A stretch of DNA of 63,907 nucleotides, the filler included, from Pirum gemmata (Eukaryota), in assembly GCA_002812295.1 (NCBI GenBank). It is 9 parts of 9 records of this genome, joined end to end, with 100 filler letters (N's around TTAATTAATTAA, not from the genome) between each part and the next. Parts side by side here need not be neighbours in the genome. Positions count along the whole stretch, not along the records: positions 36,192 to 43,588 come from PDIN01000180.1; positions 43,689 to 50,755 come from PDIN01000181.1; 7 more parts are not named here. One strand, 5' to 3'. The position numbers were made by a program, and so were the translations under genes. The notes beneath the pieces are model-generated. The model was not told the origin of the DNA, did not search any database, and saw nothing but the letters and a program-made list of their open reading frames with translations. Positions 1-50,855 of this stretch are shown piece by piece (within the stretch, counting starts at the first letter, position 1; the number at the start of each line of letters is the position of its first letter).

Positions 1-550
1 ACAACAACAACAACAACAACAACAACAACACTTAGAACAACAAGAACAAGAACAAGAACAACAACAACCACAGCAGCAACCACAGCAGCAACCACAGCAG
101 CAACCACAGCAGCAACCACAACCACAACCACAACCAACCCAGCCAAGCCAAACACCACAAATACCACAGCCACCACAATCTCAATCACAGCTTCAGCAAC
201 TACCACAAGCACCACAAACACAAACACAACTACAACAGCAGCAAATGCAGCAAATGCAGCAAATGCAGCAATTTCAGATGCAATCACATCTACAACTTCA
301 ACAGCAGTCACAAGATCAACAACAGCAACAATTATTGCACATGCACATGCATCCGTCAATGCAAGCTATTTCACAAACACAATTACATCAAGTTCCAGGA
401 CAATCCCATTTGCCACCTCACCAACAACATGAGCAAATGCTTCTTCAGCAATTACAGCTACAACAGTTGCAAATGCAACTTCAACAGCCGCAAGCACAGA
501 CACAGACACAGACACAGACACAGACACAGACACAGCAACAACAACAACAA

Positions 551-594
<44 letters not shown>

Positions 595-3500
595 ACAACA
601 ACAGCAGCAACAGCAACAGCTACCACCGCAAGCACAGCAGCAACAACATCTTCAAAATCCTTTGCATCAGCCGCAAATGGGTTTTCCTATGTGGGGCCAA
701 ATTTCCCAAAATCCTATGGGCAATCGGGCCAATGTAGAGAGCCAACAAGAGAAGAATATGGGTTCTAAGCAAGCGAATATGTTTCTCCCTCCCCAAGGTT
801 ATTGTAGCTACAACTTTTTGATATCATGTCTGTTTTTATTACTACTATTGTAGTTGTATGACCATATGGCAATAACTACAACTATACCTATAGCTATTAC
901 CATTTGGGTATTTCGATTACCATTTCATAATTACGATCACGATCAACACCAACATTCATCAACATCTAGTTTCATCCCTATTACTGCTATGGCTATGGCT
1001 ATGACTATTACCATTATCGCCATTTATTGCTGTTATTATTGCTATTTATTACTGTTACTGTTACTATTTATTGCTGTTATCATTCATTACTGATGTTGAT
1101 GTTATTTTTACTGTTATCTTACCTTATATTCCATCAAGTATTTTTAAATTTAATATTTTTACCACTTACTATTGCATTGTTACTATTTTTAATGAATCAC
1201 AATTGTCATAATCATTATCATTACCATTATCATTACCATTACTACAACCAGTACCATTGCACACCATTACTCTCACGGACATCACCACCGTAATACTTCA
1301 GACACTATTTGATTAACAAATAAACGTTACTCTTTACTAGACTATTCCTTTCCTATCATTGATTAATTTTATCATTTAATTCCAATTTCTATTACTATTT
1401 TAATCATTATACTATCAAACACGGGCACGGGCACAGGTTAGATTTTAATACTATCAAATGCTATTGTTATTACTGCTGCTAATAAGTATAATGTTGTGGT
1501 ATATTCAGTTTTGGGATGGTTATCGGTTATATATTGAAATGGTTCTGTTTTCCTCGTCCTATTCTCTAATACTAATTTATACTCCATAGGTAACGAGGTG
1601 GATTCCAATGTTATGTTCAGTAACAATCCAGTTACTGAAATGATCAAACAGCAAGAATACGAAATACGCATGTTACAGATGGGGCTTCAAGACATATCTT
1701 ACAAGGATATGACTCTAAAATCTAGATTAGGAACAGTGCACCCAGAAGAGCAAGCTATGCTGATCGGAAAAGTGTCCGAGTTACAATTTCATTATCAACT
1801 CAAAGATGGGCAAATGCAAATACGCGTGCATACTCTTCATCAATTACAACAGCTACAGCAACACGTACCGCTGGAAATGCAGGCCCAACTACTACCACAG
1901 ATACAAGATCAGCTACAACAACAATTGACAAATGTTCAACAAGTATTAATTCAGCAACATGAAATGTTTCTTAAGCAGAATGGATTTCCCAGTGTAAACA
2001 TGAACTTTGATCCTCATCCCAATGACAGCGCAGGCATGTCAACGAAACAACAAAGTTTTAACAATCAACCAATTATATCATCAGATAAATATATTACCCA
2101 TTCACACCTACATCCTCAACATGTACAGCCTCAAGCCGAAATTCAACCTCAGGCTCACTCAGACTTAACGCCTGAAGCACAGCAACATCAATATCAACAA
2201 CCACAACAACCACAACAACCACAACAACCACAACAACCACATCAACTCCATACTGAACAACTCCAACAGCTTCAGCCACCACAACCACAACCACCACAGC
2301 AACAACATCTGCAATACCAACCACCACAAGCACAAGCACAAGTACAAGCACAAGCACACGTACAAGCACAAGCACAAGCACAAGCACAAGCACAAGCAAA
2401 AGCACAAGCACAAGCACAAGCACAAGCACAAGCACAAGCACAAGCACAATCGGAAGAACAGCCAATTAAAGCGCAACAAAACCGCTCTGGACAAGGGAAT
2501 CAAGAAGAAAAGGCTAGTCAAGAACAAAGAAAACTGAAAGAGCTACAAAAAATAGAAAAAGAAATAAAAAAACAGCGAAAAGATGCCGAGAAGCAAGTGC
2601 AAGAAAAAAAGGATAGTATGGAAAAAGAAACAGAAAATCAACGGAAAGAGCAAGAAGCGTTGAAGCTTGAACAACAAAGTGAAAAACGAAAGGAGAAAGA
2701 TTCTAAAGAGAAAAGGCGGAAAAAAGATCAAAGGGAAAAGGAAAAAGAACAAGAAGAAAAAGGAAAACAACAGCCAAAGCAGTCTTTAGTTAAATCAGAT
2801 TTATCTGACCAACAAGACGAAAACGTTACAATGAGTGCTACACCAGCTTCTGTTGCTCCGTGGTCTGCTCAAAAGCCAAAATTGGAGAAAAAGCCTTCTT
2901 TATTGGAAATTGAACAGAATGAACAAACAAAGAAGAAAATGGAAAACCAGAAAAAAAAAGAACGTGGACAGCAACAAGGAAAAGAGATGGGAACTGGCGC
3001 ATGGGGAACTCGCCAGGTTTCGGTTTCTGGCGATGCGCCTTTAAGTTTAGGTGAAATCCAAAAGGCAGAAGAGGCTAGAAAAGGTATTTTTTTTTTTATT
3101 TTTTTTTTATTTGTGATTCAAGAAGTATATCAAAATATTATGAAAGTTTTAAATTTGTGTTAATATAATATTTAGAGGTTCTAGAAATTGTAGTTTTTTA
3201 AGCAGTTAGTATTGGGATTTTGGTTTAGGGGGTTTGCGGGATTGGGTCCTAGGTATATTGGGGCTTTATGATTTTGTGTGGGTTTTTTTTTGTGAAACTA
3301 AAAGCTGTGTATTTTATGTTGTTTGAGTTTCATTGCTTCGGTTTAAACTGCATTTATCGTTTTGTGGTTTTGTGGTTTTGGGGATGGGGGAATTGATGGG
3401 TTGATGGGGGTTAAGGGTTTGATTGAGGATTTGTTGTGGGGTGGGTTTGAGATTTGAAATAATAGAGATCAGAAGGCAAGGAGGTAAGGAAGTTTAGAGT

Positions 3501-6500
3501 TTGAATTTGACTCGGGACTGGGTCAAGTGGGTGAGAGATATAGAGAAAGTTGGGAGTATTTGTTTAAAGGGGCGTTACTAATAGATATTTATCATTTTGA
3601 AATCATGAAGCTCAAATGGAAGTTGAAAAAAAGAAGTTAAATGCCCAACAAATGGATTTGGAATTTGCTGAAGATCGTAATTGGTCTGCCCAAGCCATGA
3701 AGCTAACTGGTAGCTCAATGGCATCGGTTCTTGAAACCGAAGAAAAGAGAAGACAGGCCAAGTTACAACGTGAGGAACAGGTTTATATTTTTATGGTTAT
3801 TTTAACGTGTGATTTCGTCTTGTTCTTGTTCTTATTTTTATTCTTATTCTTATTCTTGTTCTTATTCTTGTTCTTATTCTTGTTCTTATTCTTGTTCTTA
3901 TTCTTGTTCTTGTTCTTGTTCTTATTCTTATTCTTATTCTTATTCTTATTCTTGTTCTTGTTCTTGTTCTCAGCTTTTTTTCAATTTTAACACTTTTCTT
4001 CGAACTCCGTCATTAGTTGAGACAACAGCGTGTCGCTGAGCAAACGAAACTTTTAGAACAGCAGCGGCTTCTAGAGGAGAAACAAAAGGAGTTAGCTACT
4101 GCTGGTTGGGGTAAAGCTAAGACCCCCACGGTAATTACGCGTTTCCTGTGTCCTATATTATCTGTGTTTTTTGTTGTGCTTAAGTCCGACTAGCGTTTTA
4201 TTGTTGCGTTTTTCAATTTTTCTTCTGTATGTTTTGAGTTAATCAATTTTAATTTCTTTTCCTTTAAAATAGCATGTGCCCGTCGTTCCAATTGTTACTC
4301 AGGAGAGCAAGAAAATACAAAGCAAAATTAAATCTAGCACCAATAAACAGATTCCGAAAAAGGTGATTGCTGGTGACAACTAGGGTTAAGGGTAGGGTTA
4401 GGGGTTAGGGGTTAGGGGTTAAGTGATTATAGGGATTAGGGTTATAGGGGTTATAGGGGTTATAAGGGTTATAGGAGTTATAGGAGTTATATAGGAGTTA
4501 TAGGAGTTATTTTTAGGGGTCATAGGGGTTATAGGGGTTATTGTGGTTAGGGGTTATAGGGGGGTATACTGGTGTATAGGGGGTATAGGAGTTAGGGGTT
4601 AGGAGTTAAGAGGAGTTAGGAGACAAAGGAGTTAGGAGTTAGGAGTTAGGAGTTAGAAGTTAGGAGTTAGAAGTTAGGAGTTAGGAGTTAGGAGGTAGGA
4701 GTAAAGTTAGAAGTTAGGAGTAGGTGTTCGGTGTTAGGGGTTAGGTCTTAATCAATCGCGCTTATTTTATTACTTATACCGATATCCCCAGACTACAAAT
4801 ACTAAAACATCTACTGCACTTCATCATCAAATTTTCTGTCATATTTAAATTCGAACCCTATACCCCCCCCTTTTTATTTATTTATTTTATTTTTTATTTT
4901 TTATAGACTCCGATAAAAGATGAATGGGAAGAGGATATAAAGTAAGTATTTGGTTTTATTTGTAATAAATAAATCAATAAAATATTAGATGAATGAAATA
5001 GGTGAATAAGTAAGGGAAGATGAAATAGAAAGCATGTTATAAGACTATGTATTAAGTTTCTGTTTAATTATAAATAATGTTAAATATGAAAAAACACATA
5101 AAATAACAAGCTTCCCAAAAAAATAGTAATAATAGTGAAATGAACACTTCCAAGGAAAATGTACATAAACAGAACATGGATGAAAAGAAAACCATGAAAT
5201 ATTAGTGAGAAAAGATAGTGCTAATATTGGCAAAAAGCTAAGTTAATAGTAAGAGTTATTTGTATTTTGTTACTGGTTGTGAAAAAAACAATAATCTTTC
5301 CCCTGATTATAAATTTTGTTTTATTTTTTCACTTTTAAAAATAGATTTGAAGATGGAGTAATGACCAAAGCAATGACCAAAGCTGAAAAAAGAAAAATGA
5401 AGAAAGCTCAACAACAAAAAGAGGAAGATGGTAATTTTGTAGTGTTATTAGTATTTTCAATTAAGTTTTTTATGTTCATCAACTCATCAATGCAGTCGGA
5501 TTGACTTTTCTATTATCATTATTATCGGCACCTTTCTTATACTATATTATATATATATATATATATTTGGAAATTTGTTATAACCAAAAATAAATAAGTG
5601 TTTGTTATTAGTGTAAAATTTATCGAATGCTTGTTTTGTCGTGTGACGAATATTATCGACCTGTTATTAGTATATATATATATCATGTTTTTGGTATTTT
5701 ATTATTTTTTCGGTGGTGTAAGTTAGGGTTGCCGGCATATTTGTGTAGTCGTTGTTTTTGTTGTGAATATGCATTGTTGCTTATATGTATAGTATTATTT
5801 CATGAATGTAGAAGCCGAGGTTGATGTTCTTGCACACCCTTCTGGAAGTAGAACCAGTACCGTTCCGAGCACACACAGTCAATCTGAACTGTCTACAGAA
5901 TCGCAAGCGGAAATACAATTTAGGAATTGGTGTGAACAACGTTTATCTCAACTTGTACAACAACAAGGTGTTGATATACCTACTATTTTTACTTTTCTTA
6001 ACGGGTTAACGAGCGCCACGCTTGTAAAAGAATCAATAAATGATATTCTAGGAAATGATGCTAAAGCGTTTGCTTTCGGGAAAGAATTCTGTCAAAGAAA
6101 AACTCAGGTTTACATTGCATTTGACCTCTTTACTCCACTCTCACATTTTATTCTTTTCTACACATACACAAGGACTAAACTTTTTTATCCCCCCCCCCCA
6201 CCCCCTTTTTTTTTTTTTTTGTTTTTTTTTTTTTTTTTTCGGGTCTGTTAAAGTTTCCCTTTTCTTTTCTAACTTGTCCTTGTCTCTTTTCTCTGATAAC
6301 TGTAGGTTCATGAAGCCAAAAAGCAACATCATGAAATGTTAAAGCGCAAACAACAAGGACAAGTATTACAGCAACAACGTCAACAACAACAAGTAGCACA
6401 GCAGCAGGCGCTATTATTAAAACAACAGCAACAACAGCAACTGTTAATAGAGCAGCAGCATAAAGAGCGCATGCAAAAACAACAACTGTTACAACAGCAA

Positions 6501-6815
6501 CAATATAAAGCTCAACAGAAAGCACGTGCACAGAAAAGGCCTTTAAGTCAGTCGAATTCTATGGTTAACCCACCAAGTCCGAATACATGGCCTAGTTTGA
6601 CACAGACGTACTCGAATGAAAAGGGGAAAAAAATAGTTGAGGAACCCACAAATCCAGCTTCTCAAACGCAAGGAGGTAAGCTGGAACGAGTTGCTTCTTC
6701 TGGTGGTAAAAAAGGCAAGAAGGGCCGACGTCAGAAAGTAGTTGATCCGTCATTGCTTGGATTTAATTCAGGTGACCTGGGCGAAGTTCAGTCAGTAGCG
6801 GATGCTTTTAATTAG
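1..6815 (+). CDS. GIGYF-family (GRB10-interacting GYF / Smy2-like) protein, 5'-truncated; exons <1-797, 1590-3083, 3611-3780, 4017-4130, 4273-4362, 4907-4941, 5345-5430, 5812-6107, 6306-6815
   Basis: All eight introns are GT-AG and keep the frame when spliced by hand. The product has Q-rich and charged coiled-coil tracts, SLLEIEQ/SLGEIQ motifs, the C-terminal domain FRNWCEQRL...VDIPTIFTFL...ILGNDAKAFAFGKEFCQRK and the tail KKGKK...VDPSLLGF, all typical of GIGYF1/2 C-termini. The GYF domain is not in the window. Confidence 0.8.
4381..4745 (+). repeat. Degenerate telomere-like repeats inside an intron
   Basis: TTAGGG/TTAGGGG grading into TTATAGGGG and TTAGGAG units within intron 4363-4906. Confidence 0.8.
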
Positions 6816-7134
6816 ATGATTAGTGTATCTGTTTTGTATGTATATTTGTGTTTTATGCTCGTAAGAGCGAAGATCATTTTTTTCCTGATATGATATAACA
6901 ATAACAAAAAGTAAAACATACGTTTTTCTAATAAGATAATATAATACGTTTTTCTAATAAGATAATATAATAAAAAGCAAAACATACGAAACAAAACTTA
7001 AATTAAAACAAAGGAGTATAAAATTTGTAATAAATATTTCTTTCTCACAACTACCAGTAACTCAGTTGTAATGTTGGTTCGTGTTTGTCAATTATTATTA
7101 TATTATTATTATTATTATTATTATTATTAGAAAA

Positions 7135-10753: not shown

Positions 10754-11593
10754 CTACAATGATGGTAAACTATGTTGTTTGTGTAAGTGTAAAAAAGTTT
10801 TCTCTTCATAAAATGGTTCAGGATTATTTGTATAAGAAGAAATCGTATTGTTAAGGTTGCATAGCCTAATTATAGAGTCAATTGCTCTTTTTTCCCCTGT
10901 AGATGGTGAAGAAGAAAATGGAAGGGAATTTGTATTGGTAAACTGTTTCGCATTTAGGCTGGTCAACTTATGTTCATTAAATAAACTAGGTATATTTAAG
11001 GCGGGCATGGTGTCTAAATTTGTTCTAAAATCTGTATTAGAATAATTGGTGTCTAAAGTTGGTCTAAAATCTGTATTGGAATTTGATCTAAGATTATTAT
11101 TAAATTCTATGGAGTCAGTTTCTATATTGGTAGTTGATGTGCTAAATGGAAGGAAATTTGTATTGGTAAACTTTTTAGCATTTAGGCTGGTCAACTTATG
11201 TTCATCAAATAAATTAGACATGCTTAAGGTACACATGGTGCCAAAATTTGTTCTAAAATCTGTATTTGAATTTGATCTAAGATTATTATTAAATTCTATT
11301 ATATTAATATCGTCTATACTCGTGTGTATGATATTATTAAAGTTGTCAAAAAAACGGTTAATTTTAAAGGAAGGTGTAGCTTTTTGTGGTTCAGATACGG
11401 TTTTTAATTTTTTAAAAACATTAATATCCTTTGCTTTTTGAACTGTGCCTTTTTTATTAATTGCTTGTTCTCCGTGTTGAAAACAATATTGATAATACAC
11501 GAGTTTCTGACAACGTGTCCCAAATTTGGTAAAACCGGCGCATCTGTGTCGGGTTTGTTTCAAATCGTGAGCATCACTAATTACAAAAGACAT
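10754..11593 (-). CDS. Hypothetical protein with N-terminal C-x-G-x-T-K-x-G-x-R-C-x8-C-x2-H zinc-finger-like motif and an internal duplication
   Basis: Intronless 279-aa ATG ORF; RCAGFTKFGTRCQKLVYYQYCFQH; IEFNNNLRSNSNTDFR and EHKLTSLNAKxFTNTN each occur twice. Confidence 0.6.
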   Translation of the reverse strand: MSFVISDAHDLKQTRHRCAGFTKFGTRCQKLVYYQYCFQHGEQAINKKGTVQKAKDINVFKKLKTVSEPQKATPSFKINRFFDNFNNIIHTSIDDINIIEFNNNLRSNSNTDFRTNFGTMCTLSMSNLFDEHKLTSLNAKKFTNTNFLPFSTSTTNIETDSIEFNNNLRSNSNTDFRPTLDTNYSNTDFRTNLDTMPALNIPSLFNEHKLTSLNAKQFTNTNSLPFSSSPSTGEKRAIDSIIRLCNLNNTISSYTNNPEPFYEEKTFLHLHKQHSLPSL

Positions 11594-43062: not shown

Positions 43063-43811
43063 TTAATAGTAGTAGTAGTAGTACTAGTACTAGCACTAGT
43101 ACTACTACTAGTAGTAGTAGCAGTTGATAATATACTATAGTACTATATGGAATATTTTCTATATTTATAAACAAGAAAGAGAACTGGGAAATATATCTTT
43201 TTCAAAAAATAAATACATAAATAAATATTAATAAATACATATTATATATATAAATACATAAATACATAAATACATAAATACATAAATACATAAATACATA
43301 AATACATAAATACATATGTCAGTTCATAAGCATCAACGAAGCCATAATCACCTCAATAACAAATTGACGATGTGAACCATATTTTTTTAAAAAACCGCCT
43401 TAGTTTTATAGTCTTAGACTCCTATGAGGCCGAAGACTTGTCTGCATACACAAAACATGTTGCAAACTCAAAGTGCTTCCTGGTAGCTTCCACACTAGAC
43501 TATGTATAATAATAAATATCCAAAACAAATAAATAACGTCTACGATATTACGATATTATATATAGATATATTTAATAATAATAATAATNNNNNNNNNNNN
43601 NNNNNNNNNNNNNNNNNNNNNNNNNNNNNNNNTTAATTAATTAANNNNNNNNNNNNNNNNNNNNNNNNNNNNNNNNNNNNNNNNNNNNATTTTTATTTAT
43701 AATAATTTTTATTTATAATAATATTATATTTATAATAATTTTATAATAATTTTATAATAAATTTATAATAATTTTATAATAAATTTATAATAATTTTTAT
43801 TTATAATTAAT

Positions 43812-44888
43812 TTATTTGTTATTAGTAACAAAAGTAGTAACCAAAGTTATCAATACTCCCATTATAAATGCCGAGGTAGAAACAACAATAATCCACACAG
43901 AATATAGCGGACGATTAAAAAAATAGTATAATATAATAGCCAGCATTGAAATAATTCCTATATTGAGACCTACCAGGATAGATGGTGTATCTTGTAATGT
44001 TTTACTAATTATAGAAAGTGAATATCGATGAGGAGTAAAAGACAGTGTATTAAGTTTATTGAAAGTGTACTTTGGTTGAAATTGCTCAGTAGAATCTAAT
44101 GCCCTTCCACCCACAAAATTTAAGTACGAGTGTTCTAATGGAACTTCGTCTACTTTGGTAGGTAAAAGTATTAATGGGTAATTCTTCATTTTATAACCTT
44201 TACCGGTAGGTTCACTTCCAAATAAGAATAGCCTTAAATTCTTTCCGACTTTGTGATAAAAGGCATGAGAGCCTTTAGCGACATAAAATATAGGTCTTTC
44301 GTTAGGTCTGTCTATTTCTACCTCGCTCCAGGGAATCCAACCATTGTCCCCGTGACTACTTAGAGCCACTTTGAAGGGGACATAATTGTTCAAATCTTCT
44401 TTACTTTGGTCGATTTTAAATCGAATGGTCACCGCTTCGGCATCGTAATAATGAGGTGCTAACGTTCCATTATAACTATAATTATACACATAACTAACAT
44501 CTAAAAATTCTCCTTCGACACTGTGGTCTACTTTGATAATAAACACATACCCAGGTGGTTCTAACGGGAATTCAGATTTGTTAACTTGGTTTCGTTTTAT
44601 AAACCATTCACATCCATACTTTAGCCTTTCGGGTTTGTCTTTCAAGTTTAATCGAAAATTCAAATCCTCCTTTCCTGCTTTACCTCCACTGATATCTAAT
44701 GCAGGGTCAACGCTACCTTGGATTATATCGTTATAATCATTAATTTGATTTAAGATTGGCTGGTTGTTTTTATATAATTTACTTTGAAGAATATAATCAC
44801 GTATATCTACTGGAAAGTATTTTTCATCTTTATGAAAATATAATATAGGTTGATAAATATAGATTAACTCGGAAAAGTTCTTGTTCAT
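43812..44888 (-). CDS. Vps62-related protein with two C-terminal TM helices
   Basis: PILYFHKDEKYFPVDI, YNYSYNG...HYYDAEAVTIRF, SSHG, RPIFYVAKGSHAFY motifs; ATG at 44888 preferred over the GTG of the ORF track. Confidence 0.75.
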   Translation of the reverse strand: MNKNFSELIYIYQPILYFHKDEKYFPVDIRDYILQSKLYKNNQPILNQINDYNDIIQGSVDPALDISGGKAGKEDLNFRLNLKDKPERLKYGCEWFIKRNQVNKSEFPLEPPGYVFIIKVDHSVEGEFLDVSYVYNYSYNGTLAPHYYDAEAVTIRFKIDQSKEDLNNYVPFKVALSSHGDNGWIPWSEVEIDRPNERPIFYVAKGSHAFYHKVGKNLRLFLFGSEPTGKGYKMKNYPLILLPTKVDEVPLEHSYLNFVGGRALDSTEQFQPKYTFNKLNTLSFTPHRYSLSIISKTLQDTPSILVGLNIGIISMLAIILYYFFNRPLYSVWIIVVSTSAFIMGVLITLVTTFVTNNK

Positions 44889-44925
44889 TTTTATTAAATA
44901 AATTTTATTTTTTTTATTAATATTA

Positions 44926-45471
44926 TTATCGCGTTTTAAACAGTTTACGAGCACATTTAGGTACAGTCAATTTGGGAGCAAATTTTTTGTGATGTCGGCG
45001 CTTTATTCTCTTAAATGCTTCTTTGTTATTGAGTAAACTTTTAATTGGTGTTTTAAGTTGGTTATATGTATATTTTTTAAAAGGTGCGTATGAAACTTGT
45101 CCTTGATTATTTTGTCCTTGATTATTTTGTCCTTGATTATTTTGTCCTTGATTATTTTGTCCTTGATTATTTTGTCCTTGATTATTTTGTCCTTGTACTT
45201 GTCCTTCTTGTTGATTTTGTCCTTGATTATTTTGTCCTTGTACTTGTCCTTCTTGTTGATTTTGATTTTGTACTTGTCCTTGTTGATTTTCTTGTTTTTT
45301 TTGTTTTTTTTCTTGTTCTTGTTCTTGTCGAAAGTAAAATGTATTAATTGGGGTCAAGTTTTGGTACTCTTTTTTTTCATGTTGTTCGAATAAAAATTTA
45401 ATTGTTTTATCTTCATATTCATTAGTAAAGAAAGAAGAAGGTTCGAGAACAGAGTCCAAATTAATATTCAT
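44926..45471 (-). CDS. Hypothetical protein with QGQNN repeats and basic C-terminus
   Basis: ATG at 45471 in AAAAATG context; 15-bp repeat units; packed between neighbours on the same strand. Confidence 0.65.
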   Translation of the reverse strand: MNINLDSVLEPSSFFTNEYEDKTIKFLFEQHEKKEYQNLTPINTFYFRQEQEQEKKQKKQENQQGQVQNQNQQEGQVQGQNNQGQNQQEGQVQGQNNQGQNNQGQNNQGQNNQGQNNQGQNNQGQVSYAPFKKYTYNQLKTPIKSLLNNKEAFKRIKRRHHKKFAPKLTVPKCARKLFKTR

Positions 45472-45579
45472 TTTTCTTAATTTTTTTCTTAATTTTTTTC
45501 TTAATTTTTTTCTTAATTTTTTTTTTCTCAATTTTTTTTATTAATTTTTTTTTTTCTTAATTTTTCTTTCTTAAATACT

Positions 45580-46548
45580 TTAACGCCTAGTTGAAAAATA
45601 AAATACTACTATCACTGTAAAAATAAGACTCAATAGTAATATGTCGGCAGCGTTGTTTGTTGATTTTACCGGGTTTGTTGATTTTACCAGGTTTGTTGAT
45701 TTTACCGGATTTGTTGATTTTACCGGATTTGTTGATTTTACCGGATTTGTTGATTTTACCGAGTTTGTTGATTTTACCGAGTTTGTTGATTTTACCGAGG
45801 GATAATAATTATCTATGTAATCCTCGGAAAGGGGATCAACAACATTAAAATATGCATTAGAGTCCAATGATCTCTCCAACCAAAAGAGTGACGTGGCTAC
45901 ATTGGCCCACACACCATAAGTACCAAATCTAGCGCACCCTTTACCCCAACTAACTATTCCAATTAGAATATCCATTCTTGGATTTTCTATTTCAATTACC
46001 AAGGGTCCCCCACTATCACCGGAACAAGCATCTTTACCTTTTTTCCCAGCACAAATTTCCGTGACGGGATGAATGTCTCTAATAGAATCTTGACCATCAT
46101 CATTATTGGCCTCGGCACATGTTTCGTAACTCACTAAATTCAATTCGACTCGTTGTTGCATGTCAGGAATTTTTTCCATTCCTTCTTTTTGTCTTCCGAA
46201 GCCGTAGAGAGTACATGGTAAATGTTCTGGTAAATCTAAACAAGAATTTAATATTACTGTATTATTATTATCAATATTCCTGTCCAACCTGATCAAAGCC
46301 AAGTCATGATCATCACTAAAAGTATAACCAATAATTTCGGCATACTCGAACTCGTCCGGGTTGCTGAGTTTTAACCCACCCACTAAAACAAATAATTCAG
46401 ATGGGTCTGGGGTTTCCTTTTGCAAACAATGTTTAGCACTTAATATTACCGAGGGTGAGATAAGAACCCCCGAACAAAAATGAACCTTTTCATTTTTATA
46501 TTGTATCGAAACCATCCATTGCTTTACTTTATCTTGAATGGTGGACAT
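45580..46548 (-). CDS. Trypsin-like serine protease (S1A) with repeat stalk and C-terminal TM anchor
   Basis: CSGVLI...SAKHC (His), DLALIRL (Asp), DACSGDSGGP (Ser; Asp at S1 pocket), GIVSWGKGCA; about eight VKSTN(P/S/L) repeats; hydrophobic tail. Confidence 0.93.
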   Translation of the reverse strand: MSTIQDKVKQWMVSIQYKNEKVHFCSGVLISPSVILSAKHCLQKETPDPSELFVLVGGLKLSNPDEFEYAEIIGYTFSDDHDLALIRLDRNIDNNNTVILNSCLDLPEHLPCTLYGFGRQKEGMEKIPDMQQRVELNLVSYETCAEANNDDGQDSIRDIHPVTEICAGKKGKDACSGDSGGPLVIEIENPRMDILIGIVSWGKGCARFGTYGVWANVATSLFWLERSLDSNAYFNVVDPLSEDYIDNYYPSVKSTNSVKSTNSVKSTNPVKSTNPVKSTNPVKSTNLVKSTNPVKSTNNAADILLLSLIFTVIVVFYFSTRR

Positions 46549-46638
46549 ATTTTATATTTTATAGATAGTAAAAAAAAAATTTCAAATCAATAAAATATAA
46601 AATAAAATTCAATAAAATTCAATAAAATTCAATAAAAT

Positions 46639-46839
46639 TCAATAAAATTCAATAAAATAATTGGAATTTTTTAATTTTTTTCTTTGTCGAAATTGATGTT
46701 CGTTTACTAATTTGTACTTATGGTCATTGATGTCCAGGACATAATAATATTTTTGACCATTGTTATTGACTTCGGAATACCCGTTTTTCTCACCATTAAT
46801 ATTGGTATAGACACTTTTACTAGAAGAAAAATAATTCAT
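46639..46839 (-). CDS. Small hypothetical protein (66 aa)
   Basis: ATG in TAAATG context; fills the gap in a gene-dense contig. Confidence 0.5.
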   Translation of the reverse strand: MNYFSSSKSVYTNINGEKNGYSEVNNNGQKYYYVLDINDHKYKLVNEHQFRQRKKLKNSNYFIEFY

Positions 46840-46904
46840 TTATTTTTAAAAATAATTCATTTATTTTTAAAAAAATAAAATAATTAAAATAAAAAGAAAA
46901 AAAA

Positions 46905-48320
46905 ATGTTATGTATTCCAAAAAGTTTGTTGGGTTGGTGGAAAAAAAAACAGATTTTAAGGTTCCCTGTGGGGACGATTGAACAAAACAGGGTAGAGGAA
47001 AGATTAGTAGCACATCAAAATTGGTGTTTGGTTTTTGTACCTACACTTACTATTACTTATCTAGGCTATCTTGCTATCACCTATTATTATTTCTATGAAA
47101 ATAATTTGGAAACTTACCGTACTTTATTGGGTTTATTAGCATCCGCGACATTGGGGATCTGTACAGTGCTTTTTACCCTAATATTATTTTTACGACATGA
47201 GCAGGAAATATTAGCCCTACACTCCGGCTTTATTTTATTTTTTGGGTTTTTTAGTATATGTGTTTGCGTTGCCCGAATATTAACGGCGTGGGTTCCCGTG
47301 CCTTTGTCTGGTGATACTATTGGTTCTAAAATTTTGTTCTTTTGGTATACCTTTTTCCAATGTTTTTCTAATCAATGCTCTTTAATAGGATTGTTGGTTA
47401 TCCGACAACAAACATTCTATAGTGTATATACAAAAAATAAACTAACTAGTTCTTTTCTTATGGGAGTGCCATTATATTTATGCATATGTTTATTAATAGC
47501 TTTCAATTTTTTTATTTGTGGGCTTATTAACAATGGGTGTTCCTTGTTAGAAAGCTACATTACTTTTTATTGTATAATGGTAATATTAGGAACATTATTT
47601 GGGTATTATTTGTATTATACCTACCCAGCCAGTATTTGTTTCATACAATTTTGGCCAAATGTTAGAATGTTTATTTTACACAACATAGTACAAATAATCT
47701 TCTTTTTAATCATGATAACGGGTAACAAGTTAAGTGTACCCGTACTAGAGCAATTAGTAGGCATGTATTTTGTACTTTTTATCGTACTAGATACACTCTT
47801 TTGGCCTATAACCAAATGTGTGGCCCGTAAATTCTATCAAGCAAATATATGGCCCGAAATGGACGTTATTGGTCTTAGTTATTCAGCCATTGGTAATAAG
47901 CAAGAATTAATCATACATTTAAGCAGTGATATTTTGTATACGAACTTTTACATGTTTTCTCGCACCTTATTTTGTGAAGAAGGAATCCAATTTCTAAGAC
48001 TCATCCAAAATTGGAAAAATAATAAAGTGGTTCACTACAAAGCCGGTCCTTCCATTTCGGAACCGCCTTTAACAGTGACGTATATTGTTAAGGATTATAT
48101 CGAAAACGACGGTGAATTTTGCTTGAACATTAGTGATAAAACTAGGAATAATACGTTACATTTGTATCAAACTTTAGAACATCCAACTTATGCTATTTTT
48201 GAAGAAGCTTTTAACAATGTTATGAATGATACGTTATTAGGTGTTTTTGAGTCTTATAAAAATAGTGATTTTTATCATAAAACTGTCAATTTTATAAAAA
48301 AGGAAAAAATACTTTTATAG
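46905..48320 (+). CDS. Multi-pass membrane protein with C-terminal RGS domain (7TM-RGS type)
   Basis: About eight hydrophobic segments, then FYMFSRTLFCEEGIQFL...IVKDYIENDGEFCLNISDKTR...IFEEAFNNVM, the RGS box pattern. Confidence 0.85.
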   Translation: MLCIPKSLLGWWKKKQILRFPVGTIEQNRVEERLVAHQNWCLVFVPTLTITYLGYLAITYYYFYENNLETYRTLLGLLASATLGICTVLFTLILFLRHEQEILALHSGFILFFGFFSICVCVARILTAWVPVPLSGDTIGSKILFFWYTFFQCFSNQCSLIGLLVIRQQTFYSVYTKNKLTSSFLMGVPLYLCICLLIAFNFFICGLINNGCSLLESYITFYCIMVILGTLFGYYLYYTYPASICFIQFWPNVRMFILHNIVQIIFFLIMITGNKLSVPVLEQLVGMYFVLFIVLDTLFWPITKCVARKFYQANIWPEMDVIGLSYSAIGNKQELIIHLSSDILYTNFYMFSRTLFCEEGIQFLRLIQNWKNNKVVHYKAGPSISEPPLTVTYIVKDYIENDGEFCLNISDKTRNNTLHLYQTLEHPTYAIFEEAFNNVMNDTLLGVFESYKNSDFYHKTVNFIKKEKILL

Positions 48321-49928
48321 TACGGGAATGGCATGATCAGGTAAAGTTCTGGTTTGTCTAGTCGCACCCTCTTGGTAAGTACCATACGTGGTTAGTTTTG
48401 GTTTTAATACTACTTGTGGATCGTACATGGTAAATGGTTGTTGATTATAAAATCCCCCTTTAGCACTAGATACGGGTTCTTGATAGGCAGTTTTTTGTGT
48501 TATGGCCGAGAATGGTGTTTGCTCAGATGTCGGAGCATGGATAGGGGCAAGGTACGATCCTCCGGTTAAATTTGTTAACCCTTGTGTTGTTGTATATTGT
48601 GATGGGTGGTAGTTTTGTATCGATTTAACTTGAGATCCGTACATGTTTTTACTATCTAACAATGAATCATCGTACCCATGTGTACGGGCAGTATAAGAAA
48701 TATCCGGGTTAAATTTGGGCCGAGAACGTTGAAAGGTATGTTGATTATGGTAATTAGGGTTATGGGCTAACATAGATCCTTCGGCATACTTATTATGTGC
48801 ACTGGTTTTAGAATAATTGGCCAAATCCTTTTGTAATCGAGTTTTTCGCACAACATGATTGATTTGATTAGCATATTCTTCATTATTAGTAATAACGTGT
48901 GCTTTTCCCGAATTTGCCGACGTTTGCGTAGGATTAGTCACCACACACCGTTGAACGTCGTCGGATGCTTCTCTGTTGGTGGAGGCCGAATAGACATAAG
49001 GAGCTTTTATTTGACTACCCAAATTTATTACCTTGGACGGGACCGTGGTATGAACCGCCTTGGAACTATGAACTATGTTTTGTGATGGGTTTTCGTTTTT
49101 ATACTTGAGAGGTTTGGTCTTAGTTTTTATTTGTTTGGCATTAATTACTTTATCATTCGACGTTAAAAAATTACTCAATTTGTGTTCGGGAATAGTGTTG
49201 GTACCATTCCCCCATTCCTTCTGACGTTGTGTAAGTACATTGCGAGCTTTTTTCCGATTTGTTTGTTGTTGGTTAACTAGTTTAAAGATGTTGGAAGGCA
49301 GATTTTCCGCTATATTGTTCTTTTTACCCCGGGTAATATTCCCGGCATTGGCTGCAACGTTAATCTTATTGGCTTGGATAGTTGTTAATTCAAGATGTTT
49401 ATCCGGCTTAACCGCAACTCCATTACTATTCTTTTTTATTTGGGTCCCTACCAAAAAAGCCCGGGTTGGTTGTAAATTGTAAATCTTGCTCATATTTACG
49501 TCAGTTGGTCCTAATTTGATTTTGTGTTGGTAGTCGGGTCGCGATACATTTCCTTCACACGCAGTCACTGGTCGAGTTTGCCGTGACAACGGTAATGTGT
49601 CCGTAGGTTTTTGAACTGTCATACGAAATGCACCATTATCCATGATTTTCCGTGGATTAGAAGCTTCTGATCCTCCACCATTAACATTGGAATAAGAAAC
49701 CTTTACCATGGGATTAATCCCGTGCGCAAATTTACTAATGGCCTCATTGATTCGGTCACCGTTGCTTTCAATCATCTCGTTCTTGTAATGGTCTACTTTT
49801 GGTTTAGCACTCGTGTAATATGACTTGGGTGGATCCTTCATAATAGCTAGGTTGGTTCCAAACCCTTCCGTACTAGGGAAAATTGGTCCCTTACCTTTAT
49901 CAATTATAGCACTAAGAGAAAAACTCAT
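48315..49928 (-). CDS. Conserved hypothetical protein resembling an iridovirus/ascovirus/marseillevirus family
   Basis: N-terminal motifs PSTEGFGTNLAIMKDPPKS, GDRINEAISKFAHGINPMVKVSYSN, GAFR...LPLSRQ match my recollection of that family (GTNxxIxRDPPKS, DRIxEAIxxYARGVNPMVxVSY, GAFRPP...LPLSR); ATG at 49928. Confidence 0.65.
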   Translation of the reverse strand: MSFSLSAIIDKGKGPIFPSTEGFGTNLAIMKDPPKSYYTSAKPKVDHYKNEMIESNGDRINEAISKFAHGINPMVKVSYSNVNGGGSEASNPRKIMDNGAFRMTVQKPTDTLPLSRQTRPVTACEGNVSRPDYQHKIKLGPTDVNMSKIYNLQPTRAFLVGTQIKKNSNGVAVKPDKHLELTTIQANKINVAANAGNITRGKKNNIAENLPSNIFKLVNQQQTNRKKARNVLTQRQKEWGNGTNTIPEHKLSNFLTSNDKVINAKQIKTKTKPLKYKNENPSQNIVHSSKAVHTTVPSKVINLGSQIKAPYVYSASTNREASDDVQRCVVTNPTQTSANSGKAHVITNNEEYANQINHVVRKTRLQKDLANYSKTSAHNKYAEGSMLAHNPNYHNQHTFQRSRPKFNPDISYTARTHGYDDSLLDSKNMYGSQVKSIQNYHPSQYTTTQGLTNLTGGSYLAPIHAPTSEQTPFSAITQKTAYQEPVSSAKGGFYNQQPFTMYDPQVVLKPKLTTYGTYQEGATRQTRTLPDHAIPVL

Positions 49929-49989
49929 TTTTATTTGTGACAACTTTTTTTTTTATCAATTTAAAAAAAAGTATACGTTTTCTAAAACA

Positions 49990-50127
49990 ATGAGTTTATT
50001 TGTAAACAAAAAACAAAATATACGTAAAAAATTACTAAATTATTTACAGGAACCAGTACCATTGGAACCAATGTCCTTGAACTCGCACATGAATAAAAAT
50101 GTATCCAACCATCATTATTCTAATCAT

Positions 50128-50184
<57 letters not shown>

Positions 50185-50755
50185 GACCAAATTCTATCGA
50201 ACTTAAACAAACCTAGGCAGAACAATGTTTCGTTTACTCCTTCTAATGGGAAATTCCAAATAAATAAAGCGTTTGGTATTAGTAAACTTGACTCTAATGA
50301 AAATTTAGATCCTGACCTCCCTACTAATGAAAGCTTTTCTACAAAGACAACTCATAATCCAATTGACTCTGATTTTTTTGTAAAATCTGAAGATAAAGAA
50401 ACATCGGAAGTTGATAACGATTATTACGATAACGATACATCGGAAGTTGATGACGATTATTACGCTAGAGTCAAGTTATTAAATAGTTTAATAGGTAACA
50501 AGGGTAACAAGGGTAACAAGGGTAACAAGGATAACAAGGATAACAAGGATAACAAGGATAACAAGGATAACAAGGATAACAAGGATAACAAGGATAACAA
50601 GGATAACAAGGATAATGATATCAAGGATAACAAGGAGAACAAGGATAATGATAACAAGGATGTTAATAATGTTTATAGTGATAAGGATAGTGATAGTGAT
50701 GATTATAAGGATAAGGATGATTATAAGGATGATTATAAGGATGATTATAAGGATG
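49990..50755 (+). CDS. Hypothetical N/D/K-rich low-complexity protein, 3'-truncated
   Basis: ATG at 49990, 61 bp from the divergent neighbour; (NKD)n repeats; runs into the linker. Confidence 0.6.
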
Positions 50756-50855
50756 NNNNNNNNNNNNNNNNNNNNNNNNNNNNNNNNNNNNNNNNNNNNT
50801 TAATTAATTAANNNNNNNNNNNNNNNNNNNNNNNNNNNNNNNNNNNNNNNNNNNN

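What the first reader, a model, noticed from the sequence alone, without database searches (positions are those of the whole stretch)
43689..50755. Giant-virus-like contig inside a eukaryotic assembly
Seen: roughly 90% coding, seven intronless ORFs, 61- and 65-bp divergent spacers, and none of the MITEs, TTAGGG or TAGC tracts found in other contigs. ORF 48315-49928 resembles a Pimascovirales family (recalled, not searched). Inference: an endogenous viral element or a co-sequenced virus. ORFs are intact, so it is recent or active. Host-like (AAT)n tracts are present, but no virus-host junction is visible.
Basis: partly seen in the sequence, partly recalled or inferred. Interest (0 to 1): 0.8.

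Follow-up and report, generated by a model that had tools for sequence, protein, structure and literature searches.

The report
Iridovirus-related giant-virus fragment with receptor gene
This 7-kb stand-alone contig in a eukaryote assembly is gene-packed DNA carrying a gene otherwise found in iridovirus-related giant viruses, so it is likely a piece of such a virus (likely newly built into the cell's genome, though no junction is visible), and it also carries a cell-type membrane protein predicted to damp G-protein signalling, a gene type not found in the related viruses checked.

Summary
43689-50755 is one contig between artificial spacers. It is 93% ORF (other contigs 4-49%), with 65- and 61-bp divergent gaps. 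ORF6 (48315-49928) belongs to an unnamed, mostly single-copy virus family: 613 protein clusters and 204 viral-contig loci. Named relatives are invertebrate iridoviruses IIV22 and IIV31. Of 46 carrier records, 31 show a capsid gene and 29 of these are iridovirus-type (Pimascovirales). ORF6 is the most divergent of 150 members, yet no frame is broken, so it points to an unsampled lineage rather than a decayed relic. Only this one gene is shown to be viral; no hallmark gene lies on the contig. The other identifiable genes are cell-like membrane proteins: a Vps62-like protein, a trypsin and a 7TM-RGS. No RGS gene was found in 46 related virus records. Integration is undecided. A host-like (AAT)18 run and high repeat load favour it (0.48). 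No CpG loss, no junction and no decay fit a co-sequenced virus equally (0.32). A host island with one captured gene remains possible (0.17). Verdict: new member of a known kind; the virus-borne 7TM-RGS is the part worth following.

The parts
43689..50755 (.). Whole contig, 32% GC, CpG observed/expected 0.98, 93% ORF; both ends lie in tandem repeats
43689..43817 (.). AT-only tandem repeats (11- to 16-bp units) at the left end, where the assembly stops
43812..44888 (-). ORF1, 358 aa: Vps62-like domain and two C-terminal hydrophobic segments; start context ATAAAAATG as in ORF6
   Evidence: Pfam PF06101 31.4 bits, cut-off 22.1, E 8.6e-8; hydropathy; no relative in 46 virus records
44926..45471 (-). 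ORF2, 181 aa orphan with in-frame Q/N/G repeats and a basic C-terminus
   Evidence: singleton cluster, source EukProt; no viral relative
45580..46548 (-). ORF3, 322 aa trypsin-family serine protease: His, Asp and Ser motifs and the S1 Asp present; no signal peptide or IVGG-type start; S/T/N/P repeat stalk; C-terminal hydrophobic anchor
   Evidence: Pfam PF00089 E 1.4e-39; alignment; hydropathy; motifs read from the sequence
46639..46839 (-). ORF4, 66 aa, unsupported small ORF
   Evidence: no Pfam match over cut-off; no viral relative
46905..48320 (+). ORF5, 471 aa: seven hydrophobic segments followed by an RGS domain (7TM-RGS architecture)
   Evidence: Pfam PF00615 35.7 bits, cut-off 23.9, E 1.2e-8, residues 345-459; 7 segments; Atlas neighbours are eukaryotic clusters with RGS in 13-55% of members, score 0.94
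48315..49928 (-). ORF6, 537 aa: conserved N-terminal region of about 140 aa of an unnamed Pimascovirales protein family, plus a variable T/N/K/S-rich tail; likely a virion structural protein (inferred)
49990..50755 (+). ORF7, at least 255 aa, low-complexity (poly-Asn, DNK repeats), cut by the contig end
   Evidence: no Pfam match
50129..50183 (+). Perfect (AAT)18 microsatellite inside ORF7, of a kind common in the host-like contigs and absent from 183 related viral loci

Best explanation
The contig is gene-dense DNA with one gene of an iridovirus-related (Pimascovirales) virus family, and is likely a fragment of the genome of such a virus, likely a young copy integrated in the protist's own genome, whose captured 7TM-RGS gene would act to damp host G-protein signalling. 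Shown: gene packing, the family and taxonomic context of ORF6, the domain content of ORF1, ORF3 and ORF5, and unbroken frames. Inferred: (1) All seven ORFs belong to one viral genome, from packing like that of related viruses, a shared A-rich start context and high CpG. (2) The lineage is deep and unsampled, because ORF6 departs from the family far more than neutral decay without stops allows. (3) ORF6 makes a virion lattice or minor capsid protein: it is single-copy and has an extended conserved N-terminus and a variable tail (about 0.6). (4) The virus captured membrane-protein genes from a non-animal host; in infected cells ORF5 would sit in the membrane and speed GTP hydrolysis on host G-alpha, as cellular 7TM-RGS proteins do (about 0.4 if viral). 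(5) The DNA has been copied under the host's slippage-prone regime, hence integrated. Viral origin overall is about 0.8; this integrated form is about 0.48.
For: ORF6: 613 clusters at E<=1e-3; 204 of 222 pattern hits confirmed in viral contigs. Only 2 of 9 pattern hits in prokaryote genomes were confirmed; one is identical to a giant-virus bin locus and one shares two genes with a viral contig. Named relatives are IIV22 S6DB02 (E 1.7e-4, 32%) and IIV31 A0A068QKC7 (E 4.1e-3, 34%). 31 of 46 carrier records show an MCP and 29 are iridovirus-type. Two of these MCPs score 417-464 bits to 6OJN (iridovirus), 374-377 to 7YJL (melbournevirus) and at most 70 to PBCV-1. ORF cover 0.90 against 0.89 in relatives. 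CpG 0.98 against 0.55-0.79 in the other contigs. ATAAAAATG precedes ORF1 and ORF6 and is the joint commonest context of 109 homologue starts, 9 of 109. For integration: tandem-repeat cover is 14.1%, inside the range of the other contigs (4.8-17.3%) and above all 183 viral loci (mean 3.1%, maximum 13.8%). Perfect trinucleotide runs of 10 or more units occur in 0 of 183 viral loci (2.83 Mb), once here and 13 times in the other 8 contigs.
Against: Only 1 of 7 ORFs has a viral relative. ORF1-5 and ORF7 hit none of 234 loci. RGS and Vps62 were found in 0 of 46 virus records, with no positive control. No hallmark gene, junction, intron, transposon or CpG loss is seen. 7 of 526 7-kb windows from viral loci reach the same repeat cover, and short-read metagenome assemblies may break at microsatellites, which biases that control. 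All in-ORF repeat units are multiples of 3, so the repeats arose while the genes were under selection, which fits a repeat-prone free virus too. Tetranucleotide signal is uninformative: r 0.05-0.40 to host contigs, mean 0.19 and maximum 0.40 to viral loci. Only part of the RGS G-alpha contact motifs is kept in a weak RGS2 alignment (E 0.42; residue roles recalled).
Confidence: 0.48

Rival explanations
1. The contig is part of a free or persistently infecting Pimascovirales virus that was sequenced with the culture. The virus has a repeat-prone genome that broke into short contigs, and its 7TM-RGS, protease and Vps62-like genes are ordinary captured host genes.
For: No stops or frameshifts in 2121 codons; no CpG depletion; in-frame repeats; no host-type dispersed repeat shared with other contigs; the contig is virus-like from end to end. 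Only one run (X1), possibly the source of the assembly, holds it.
Against: The (AAT)18 run and the repeat load match the host-like contigs and exceed the sampled relatives. Young integrated copies are also dense and intact (coding density above 90% in Euglena GEVEs, PMC12455990).
Confidence: 0.32
2. The contig is host DNA: a compact cluster of intronless host genes (7TM-RGS, trypsin, Vps62-like, orphans) into which one virus gene, ORF6, was transferred and kept.
For: All three other identifiable genes are cell-type. ORF5's look-alikes are eukaryotic and RGS families are expanded in several protist lineages (PMC3971589). Host contigs have long intronless ORFs, among them a 7TM protein. ORF6 is the most divergent family member, which could reflect a new role. 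Repeats are host-like.
Against: Gaps of 37-108 bp, with divergent genes sharing 61-65 bp, are unlike all 8 other contigs. CpG is higher than in every other contig. ORF1 and ORF2 share the start context of the viral gene, which 4 host ORFs lack (small numbers, host starts unverified). A likely virion protein is an odd gene for a host to keep.
Confidence: 0.17
3. The contig is an assembly chimera, or DNA of a second organism in the sample.
For: Fragmented assembly; single source run.
Against: No internal gap or composition break; ORF5 and ORF6 overlap by 6 bp at their stops, tying the cell-type gene to the viral gene; X1 holds 0.98 of the sampled words of 43800-50100.
Confidence: 0.03

Closest known systems
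Uncharacterised proteins of invertebrate iridoviruses IIV22 (S6DB02, 329 aa) and IIV31 (A0A068QKC7, 359 aa), and their relatives in aquatic Pimascovirales metagenome bins
   Same: N-terminal region of about 140 aa, 32-34% identical to the named proteins and 33-45% to 149 unnamed ones; one locus per genome in 43 of 46 records.
   Different: ORF6 departs at 14 of 46 strongly conserved columns (others: mean 3.6, maximum 12 of 149) and has the longest terminal branch. The usual neighbours, such as the NUDIX gene in 21 of 54 loci, are absent. That this family is IIV-6 329R / IIV-3 099R, a virion protein shared by 12 invertebrate iridovirus genomes and absent from vertebrate ones, is recalled; the accessions could not be linked.
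Giant endogenous viral elements (GEVEs) of protists: Amoebidium (PMC11244446), Euglena gracilis (PMC12455990)
   Same: Dense, mostly intronless viral gene blocks in a protist assembly, with many orphans and captured host genes.
   Different: Those are Medusavirus-related or Asfuvirales, have host flanks and marker genes, and are methylated or eroded. Here the affinity is Pimascovirales, and no flank, marker or erosion is seen.
'Viral contig-like' Iridoviridae-related regions in eukaryote assemblies (bioRxiv 10.1101/2025.04.19.649669)
   Same: A viral region filling its whole contig, which that study treats as no strong evidence of integration on its own.
   Different: Those cases are in ray-finned fish and fall within Iridoviridae; this one is a divergent lineage beside protist-like contigs.
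Cellular 7TM-RGS proteins of plants, Trichomonas and other protists, chytrids, filastereans and ichthyosporeans (PMC3865004, PMC3971589)
   Same: Seven membrane segments followed by an RGS domain, similar length.
   Different: Intronless, packed against a viral gene, no close relative found; GAP activity untested.
DUF5899 (PF19251) and PBCV-1 minor capsid protein P11 C-terminal region (PF23983)
   Same: Language-model neighbours of ORF6 residues 1-150: 0.92-0.94 for clusters with DUF5899 in 20-45% of members, 0.86 for P11_C; all virus clusters where taxa are recorded.
   Different: Neither profile is among the Pfam matches shown for 81 family members; DUF5899 is over its cut-off in 0 of 20 carrier records. 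A lead only.

Membership tests
Nucleocytoviricota genome fragment | Hallmark genes (double jelly-roll MCP, PolB, A32 ATPase, VLTF3, D5) in the same genome | not testable with these tools
   None among the 7 ORFs; the rest of the assembly is not held.
Nucleocytoviricota genome fragment | At least one gene of a family confined to these viruses | tested here: met
   ORF6; the 2 prokaryote-genome hits look like viral contigs in bins. Eukaryote genomes were not searched.
Nucleocytoviricota genome fragment | High coding density, short spacers, intronless genes | tested here: met
   0.90-0.93 against a mean of 0.89 in 92 AT-rich viral loci.
Order Pimascovirales | Placement by marker-gene phylogeny | tested here: inconclusive
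   No marker on the contig. Indirect: 29 of the 31 carrier records with an MCP have an iridovirus-type one; 2 bins show only a distant MCP.
Family Iridoviridae | Core gene set and branching inside the family | not testable with these tools
   Only one shared gene, at 32-34% identity; unnamed relatives are closer.
Giant endogenous viral element | Physical junction with host DNA | tested here: inconclusive
   No junction inside the contig; both ends stop in tandem repeats. Reads were not examined.
Giant endogenous viral element | Depth equal to host single-copy DNA, or presence in independent isolates | not tested
   One holder run only, possibly the source; depth not measured.
Giant endogenous viral element | Signs of residence: methylation or CpG loss, introns, transposons, broken genes, host-type repeats | tested here: inconclusive
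   No CpG loss, stops or shared dispersed repeats; host-like microsatellite and repeat load present.
7TM-RGS receptor-GAP | Seven membrane segments N-terminal to an RGS domain | tested here: met
   (hydropathy only).
7TM-RGS receptor-GAP | GAP activity on G-alpha, contact residues kept | tested here: inconclusive
   Weak RGS2 alignment keeps the CEE and NI motifs but not the C-terminal one; the single-sequence model was unusable, pLDDT 43.
DUF5899 (PF19251) | Score above the Pfam cut-off of 25 bits | tested here: not met
   No match for ORF6; not among the 25 of 36 families shown for 81 members, the rest being single weak matches; 0 of 20 records over cut-off, and the 2 weak matches lie at other genes.
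Trypsin family S1 peptidase | His-Asp-Ser triad motifs and profile match | tested here: met
   PF00089 136.6 bits; motifs in the alignment.

The most novel reading that the evidence does not exclude
An unsampled, deep-branching Pimascovirales lineage infects and integrates into this protist and encodes its own 7TM-RGS receptor-GAP, with which it switches off host heterotrimeric G-protein signalling. This is a viral mimic of a receptor class that animals lack, and the mirror image of herpesvirus and poxvirus GPCRs. The contig would also give a real host to a large clade of iridovirus-related aquatic viruses known mostly from metagenomes.
Probability: 0.3. Interest if true: 0.68.

Novelty: new member of a known kind. 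Interest (0 to 1): 0.42.

Why it matters
Giant-virus pieces in eukaryote assemblies are common (781,111 viral regions in 7,103 assemblies in one survey), so the fragment alone is ordinary. Two points raise it. First, its one viral gene ties it to iridovirus-related viruses known mostly from metagenomes, and it is the most divergent of 150 sampled members, so it would link an unsampled lineage to a sequenced non-animal host. Second, a 7TM-RGS gene abuts the viral gene. No RGS was found in 46 related virus records, and no report of a viral 7TM-RGS turned up (open-access library only). If the gene is viral and active, it gives a direct, testable route by which a giant virus controls host G-protein signalling.

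Tried and rejected
Own genome: not held, so no hallmark search in the assembly. Sequencing runs: one DNA holder, no RNA holder listed, which is no evidence on expression; depth and junctions remain unmeasured. Single-protein pattern scans of viral contigs for ORF6, ORF5, ORF1, ORF3, ORF4 and ORF2 found nothing; these reach close relatives only, as ORF6 itself shows. Word-index search with ORF5: none. PDB sequence searches with ORF6 alignments: no real match. Foldseek PDB and VIA wide: none; the model is weak (pLDDT 60, pTM 0.23), so these blanks mean little, and the BFVD hits are sequence-driven (TM 0.17-0.19). Pfam on ORF6 relatives: no shared family. DUF5899 membership rejected; no paper holds the term. 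'Long-dead relic' rejected: neutral decay enough to explain ORF6's divergence predicts about 7.6 stops in ORF6 and about 34 in six ORFs, and none is seen (a rough calculation). 'Bacterial gene' rejected. Tetranucleotide assignment was inconclusive. Trypsin domains occur in 5 of 46 relatives, but the best is only locally similar to ORF3, 42% over 53 aa. Linking ORF6 to IIV-6 329R by accession failed. Earlier findings on this genome or sequence: none.
Full report
Observation. The window is a chain of contigs joined by an artificial spacer, and the finding is one whole 7067-bp contig. ORFs of 100 aa or more cover 0.90 of it, against 0.04-0.49 for the other 8 contigs and at most 0.11 in 100 shuffles. 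With the 66-aa ORF4 the cover is 0.93, and the gaps are 37, 108, 90, 65, -6 and 61 bp. CpG observed/expected is 0.98, against 0.55-0.79 elsewhere. ORF7 is cut by the contig end and ORF4 is unsupported. The lack of TTAGGG and TAGC arrays is real but each is also missing from one other contig, and host-like contigs hold long intronless ORFs too. Matches to other contigs are confined to low-complexity tracts.

ORF6 is a virus gene. Its first 140 or so residues match 613 protein clusters at E<=1e-3, 292 of them at 1e-10. Pattern scans confirmed 54 of 104 and 204 of 222 stretches in viral contigs (the best 80 kept) and 131 of 247 in metagenomes (80 kept). In prokaryote genomes 2 of 9 were confirmed; one is identical to a giant-virus bin locus and the other shares two genes with a viral contig. 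A fold search with a weak model (pLDDT 60, pTM 0.23) gave two named relatives on sequence grounds, IIV22 S6DB02 and IIV31 A0A068QKC7. I searched the 46 carrier records that are held; 18 of 38 and 24 of 50 loci offered were not held. Of the 46, 31 show a major capsid gene. Fourteen of 15 in the first set and 15 of 16 in the second are of one type, at 51-86% identity to the G001 capsid. That type scores 417-464 bits against PDB 6OJN, 374-377 against 7YJL and at most 70 against PBCV-1. 6OJN is an iridovirus MCP (PMC9742146, passages) and 7YJL the melbournevirus MCP (PMC13119691, passages). Bins G016 and G027 show only a distant capsid and may be mixed. Genes near the homologues include VLTF3, RNA polymerase, ribonucleotide reductase and MCP (97 of 431 cluster representatives scanned).

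A deep branch, not a wreck. At 46 columns where at least 80% of the family agree, ORF6 differs at 14; the other 149 sequences differ at 3.6 on average and 12 at most, and ORF6 has the longest terminal branch (0.79, median 0.22). If that excess were neutral decay, about 7.6 stops would be expected in ORF6 and about 34 over six ORFs; there are none, which caps neutral change near 2% (a rough count). Every tandem array inside an ORF has a unit that is a multiple of three, whereas spacer arrays include units of 10, 11, 13 and 16. The genes were under selection until recently.

What ORF6 likely does. It occupies one locus in 43 of 46 records (three bins have two; four records show one gene as two pieces). 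It has an extended Pro/Gly/Arg-rich conserved head with little predicted secondary structure and a variable polar tail like that of its relatives. A language-model search puts it near virus clusters partly labelled DUF5899 and, more weakly, the PBCV-1 minor capsid protein P11 region, but the DUF5899 profile test fails and no solved structure matches. I recall the family as IIV-6 329R. A review lists 329R among size-based candidates for the pentameric complex of the virion (PMC5923455, section 7 read). A supplement shows 329R orthologues in 12 invertebrate iridovirus genomes and none in vertebrate ones (PMC5873915, passages and supplement rows). I could not link the accessions, and the proteome paper is not held. 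Virion lattice protein is an inference, about 0.6.

The other genes. ORF1 has a Vps62-like domain and two C-terminal hydrophobic segments. ORF3 is a trypsin-family protease with its catalytic motifs, a repeat stalk and a C-terminal anchor but no signal peptide. ORF5 has seven hydrophobic segments and an RGS domain above the Pfam cut-off. ORF2, ORF4 and ORF7 are orphans. None of the six hits any of 234 loci. Trypsin domains occur in 5 of 46 related records; RGS and Vps62 in 0 of 46, with no positive control. ORF5's look-alikes are eukaryotic and it has no close relative. 7TM-RGS proteins occur in many bikonts, chytrids, filastereans and ichthyosporeans but not in animals (PMC3971589, passages), and they act by speeding GTP hydrolysis on G-alpha at the membrane (PMC3865004, whole text). 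The donor was thus probably not an animal. ORF2 and one host-like ORF are in EukProt, which fits a microbial eukaryote assembly; the host lineage was not determined. A weak alignment to RGS2 (E 0.42) keeps two of the G-alpha contact motifs and loses the C-terminal one (roles recalled), so activity is open. ORF5 overlaps ORF6 by 6 bp at the stops, so it is physically part of the same block. ORF1 and ORF6 share the start context ATAAAAATG, joint commonest among 109 homologue starts (9 of 109), while four host ORFs do not; this is weak support in AT-rich DNA.

Integrated or free. For integration: tandem repeats cover 14.1% of the contig, within the 4.8-17.3% of the other contigs and above all 183 related loci of 5 kb or more (mean 3.1%, maximum 13.8%). 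A perfect run of 10 or more trinucleotides occurs here once, 13 times in the other 8 contigs and never in 2.83 Mb of related viral loci. Against: 7 of 526 7-kb viral windows reach the same repeat cover; 12 of 183 loci have as much microsatellite cover; metagenome assemblies may break at such runs; and there is no CpG loss, intron, transposon, broken gene or junction. Tetranucleotide signal does not decide. The assembly is not held. One run holds the DNA and may be its source. Depth and junctions were not measured. I put a young integrated copy at 0.48, a co-sequenced virus at 0.32, a host island with one captured gene at 0.17 and an artefact at 0.03.

Comparison and novelty. Endogenous giant viruses are described in Amoebidium (Medusavirus-related; PMC11244446, passages) and Euglena (Asfuvirales, coding density above 90%; PMC12455990, passages). 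A survey counts 781,111 viral regions in 7,103 assemblies and treats contig-filling regions as unproven insertions (10.1101/2025.04.19.649669, passages; its supplements are closed and may already list this contig). Permafrost Pimascovirales were reported as free viruses (PMC9546926, passages). A search for Pimascovirales with endogenous and protist genome listed 2 papers, seen as listings only; one search was also seen as a listing only. Earlier notes of this scan describe similar fragments in other protist assemblies (unchecked, and used only to lower novelty). For a viral 7TM-RGS: one search listed one paper, on plankton transcription (listing only); none of the 15 listed papers held '7TM-RGS'; and a review of host-derived giant-virus genes has no occurrence of RGS or GPCR in its main text (PMC10583209, term search). 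The library is open-access only, so this is not proof of absence. The contig works like a stretch of a Pimascovirales genome. Membership of the phylum rests on one family gene plus architecture; order is indirect; endogenous status is not shown.

Verdict. Observation confirmed, interpretation partly supported. New member of a known kind, interest 0.42. The boldest reading not excluded is a deep Pimascovirales lineage that integrates into a protist and carries a working 7TM-RGS to damp host G-protein signalling: probability 0.3, interest 0.68 if true.

Noticed in passing
window, all spacers (e.g. 43589-43688, 50756-50855): Contigs of about 7.0-7.4 kb joined by N44-TTAATTAATTAA-N44; adjacency across spacers carries no information.
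   Followed up: yes
window 10754-11593 (-): Intronless 279-aa ORF with an N-terminal Cys/His motif of a zinc-binding type seen in large DNA viruses and fungi (recalled). No Pfam match and no hit in 234 viral loci; possibly another virus-derived gene.
   Followed up: partly
window 60847-61899 (-): Intronless 350-aa ORF with seven hydrophobic segments and no Pfam match: a likely host GPCR-like protein, showing that the host has single-exon 7TM genes.
   Followed up: partly
window 55750-56976 (+): Asn-rich ORF with a TALE-type homeobox (Homeobox_KN, E 5.4e-17).
   Followed up: partly
window 36225-37946 (-): Intronless 573-aa ORF, present in EukProt, with no Pfam match.
   Followed up: partly
window 1-7134: Gln-rich, apparently spliced gene whose last exons resemble GIGYF-family C-termini (recalled, not searched); this contig has the lowest CpG (0.55) and no TAGC arrays.
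   Followed up: no
window 21795-28900, 62240-62275 and others: Internal TTAGGG arrays and many TAGC arrays in the host-like contigs.
   Followed up: no
G001:C1:236460-241531 (L055, L058-L060): A related virus record carries four tandem, full-length iridovirus-type major capsid genes; G018 also has several capsid copies, some with insertions.
   Followed up: no
L240, L241: Two bacterial MAG contigs carry the ORF6 family; L241 is identical to giant-virus bin locus L037, so these look like mis-binned virus DNA.
   Followed up: yes
L235 (G043): A related virus record encodes a trypsin-family protease that starts almost directly at the mature N-terminus without a signal peptide, as ORF3 does.
   Followed up: partly
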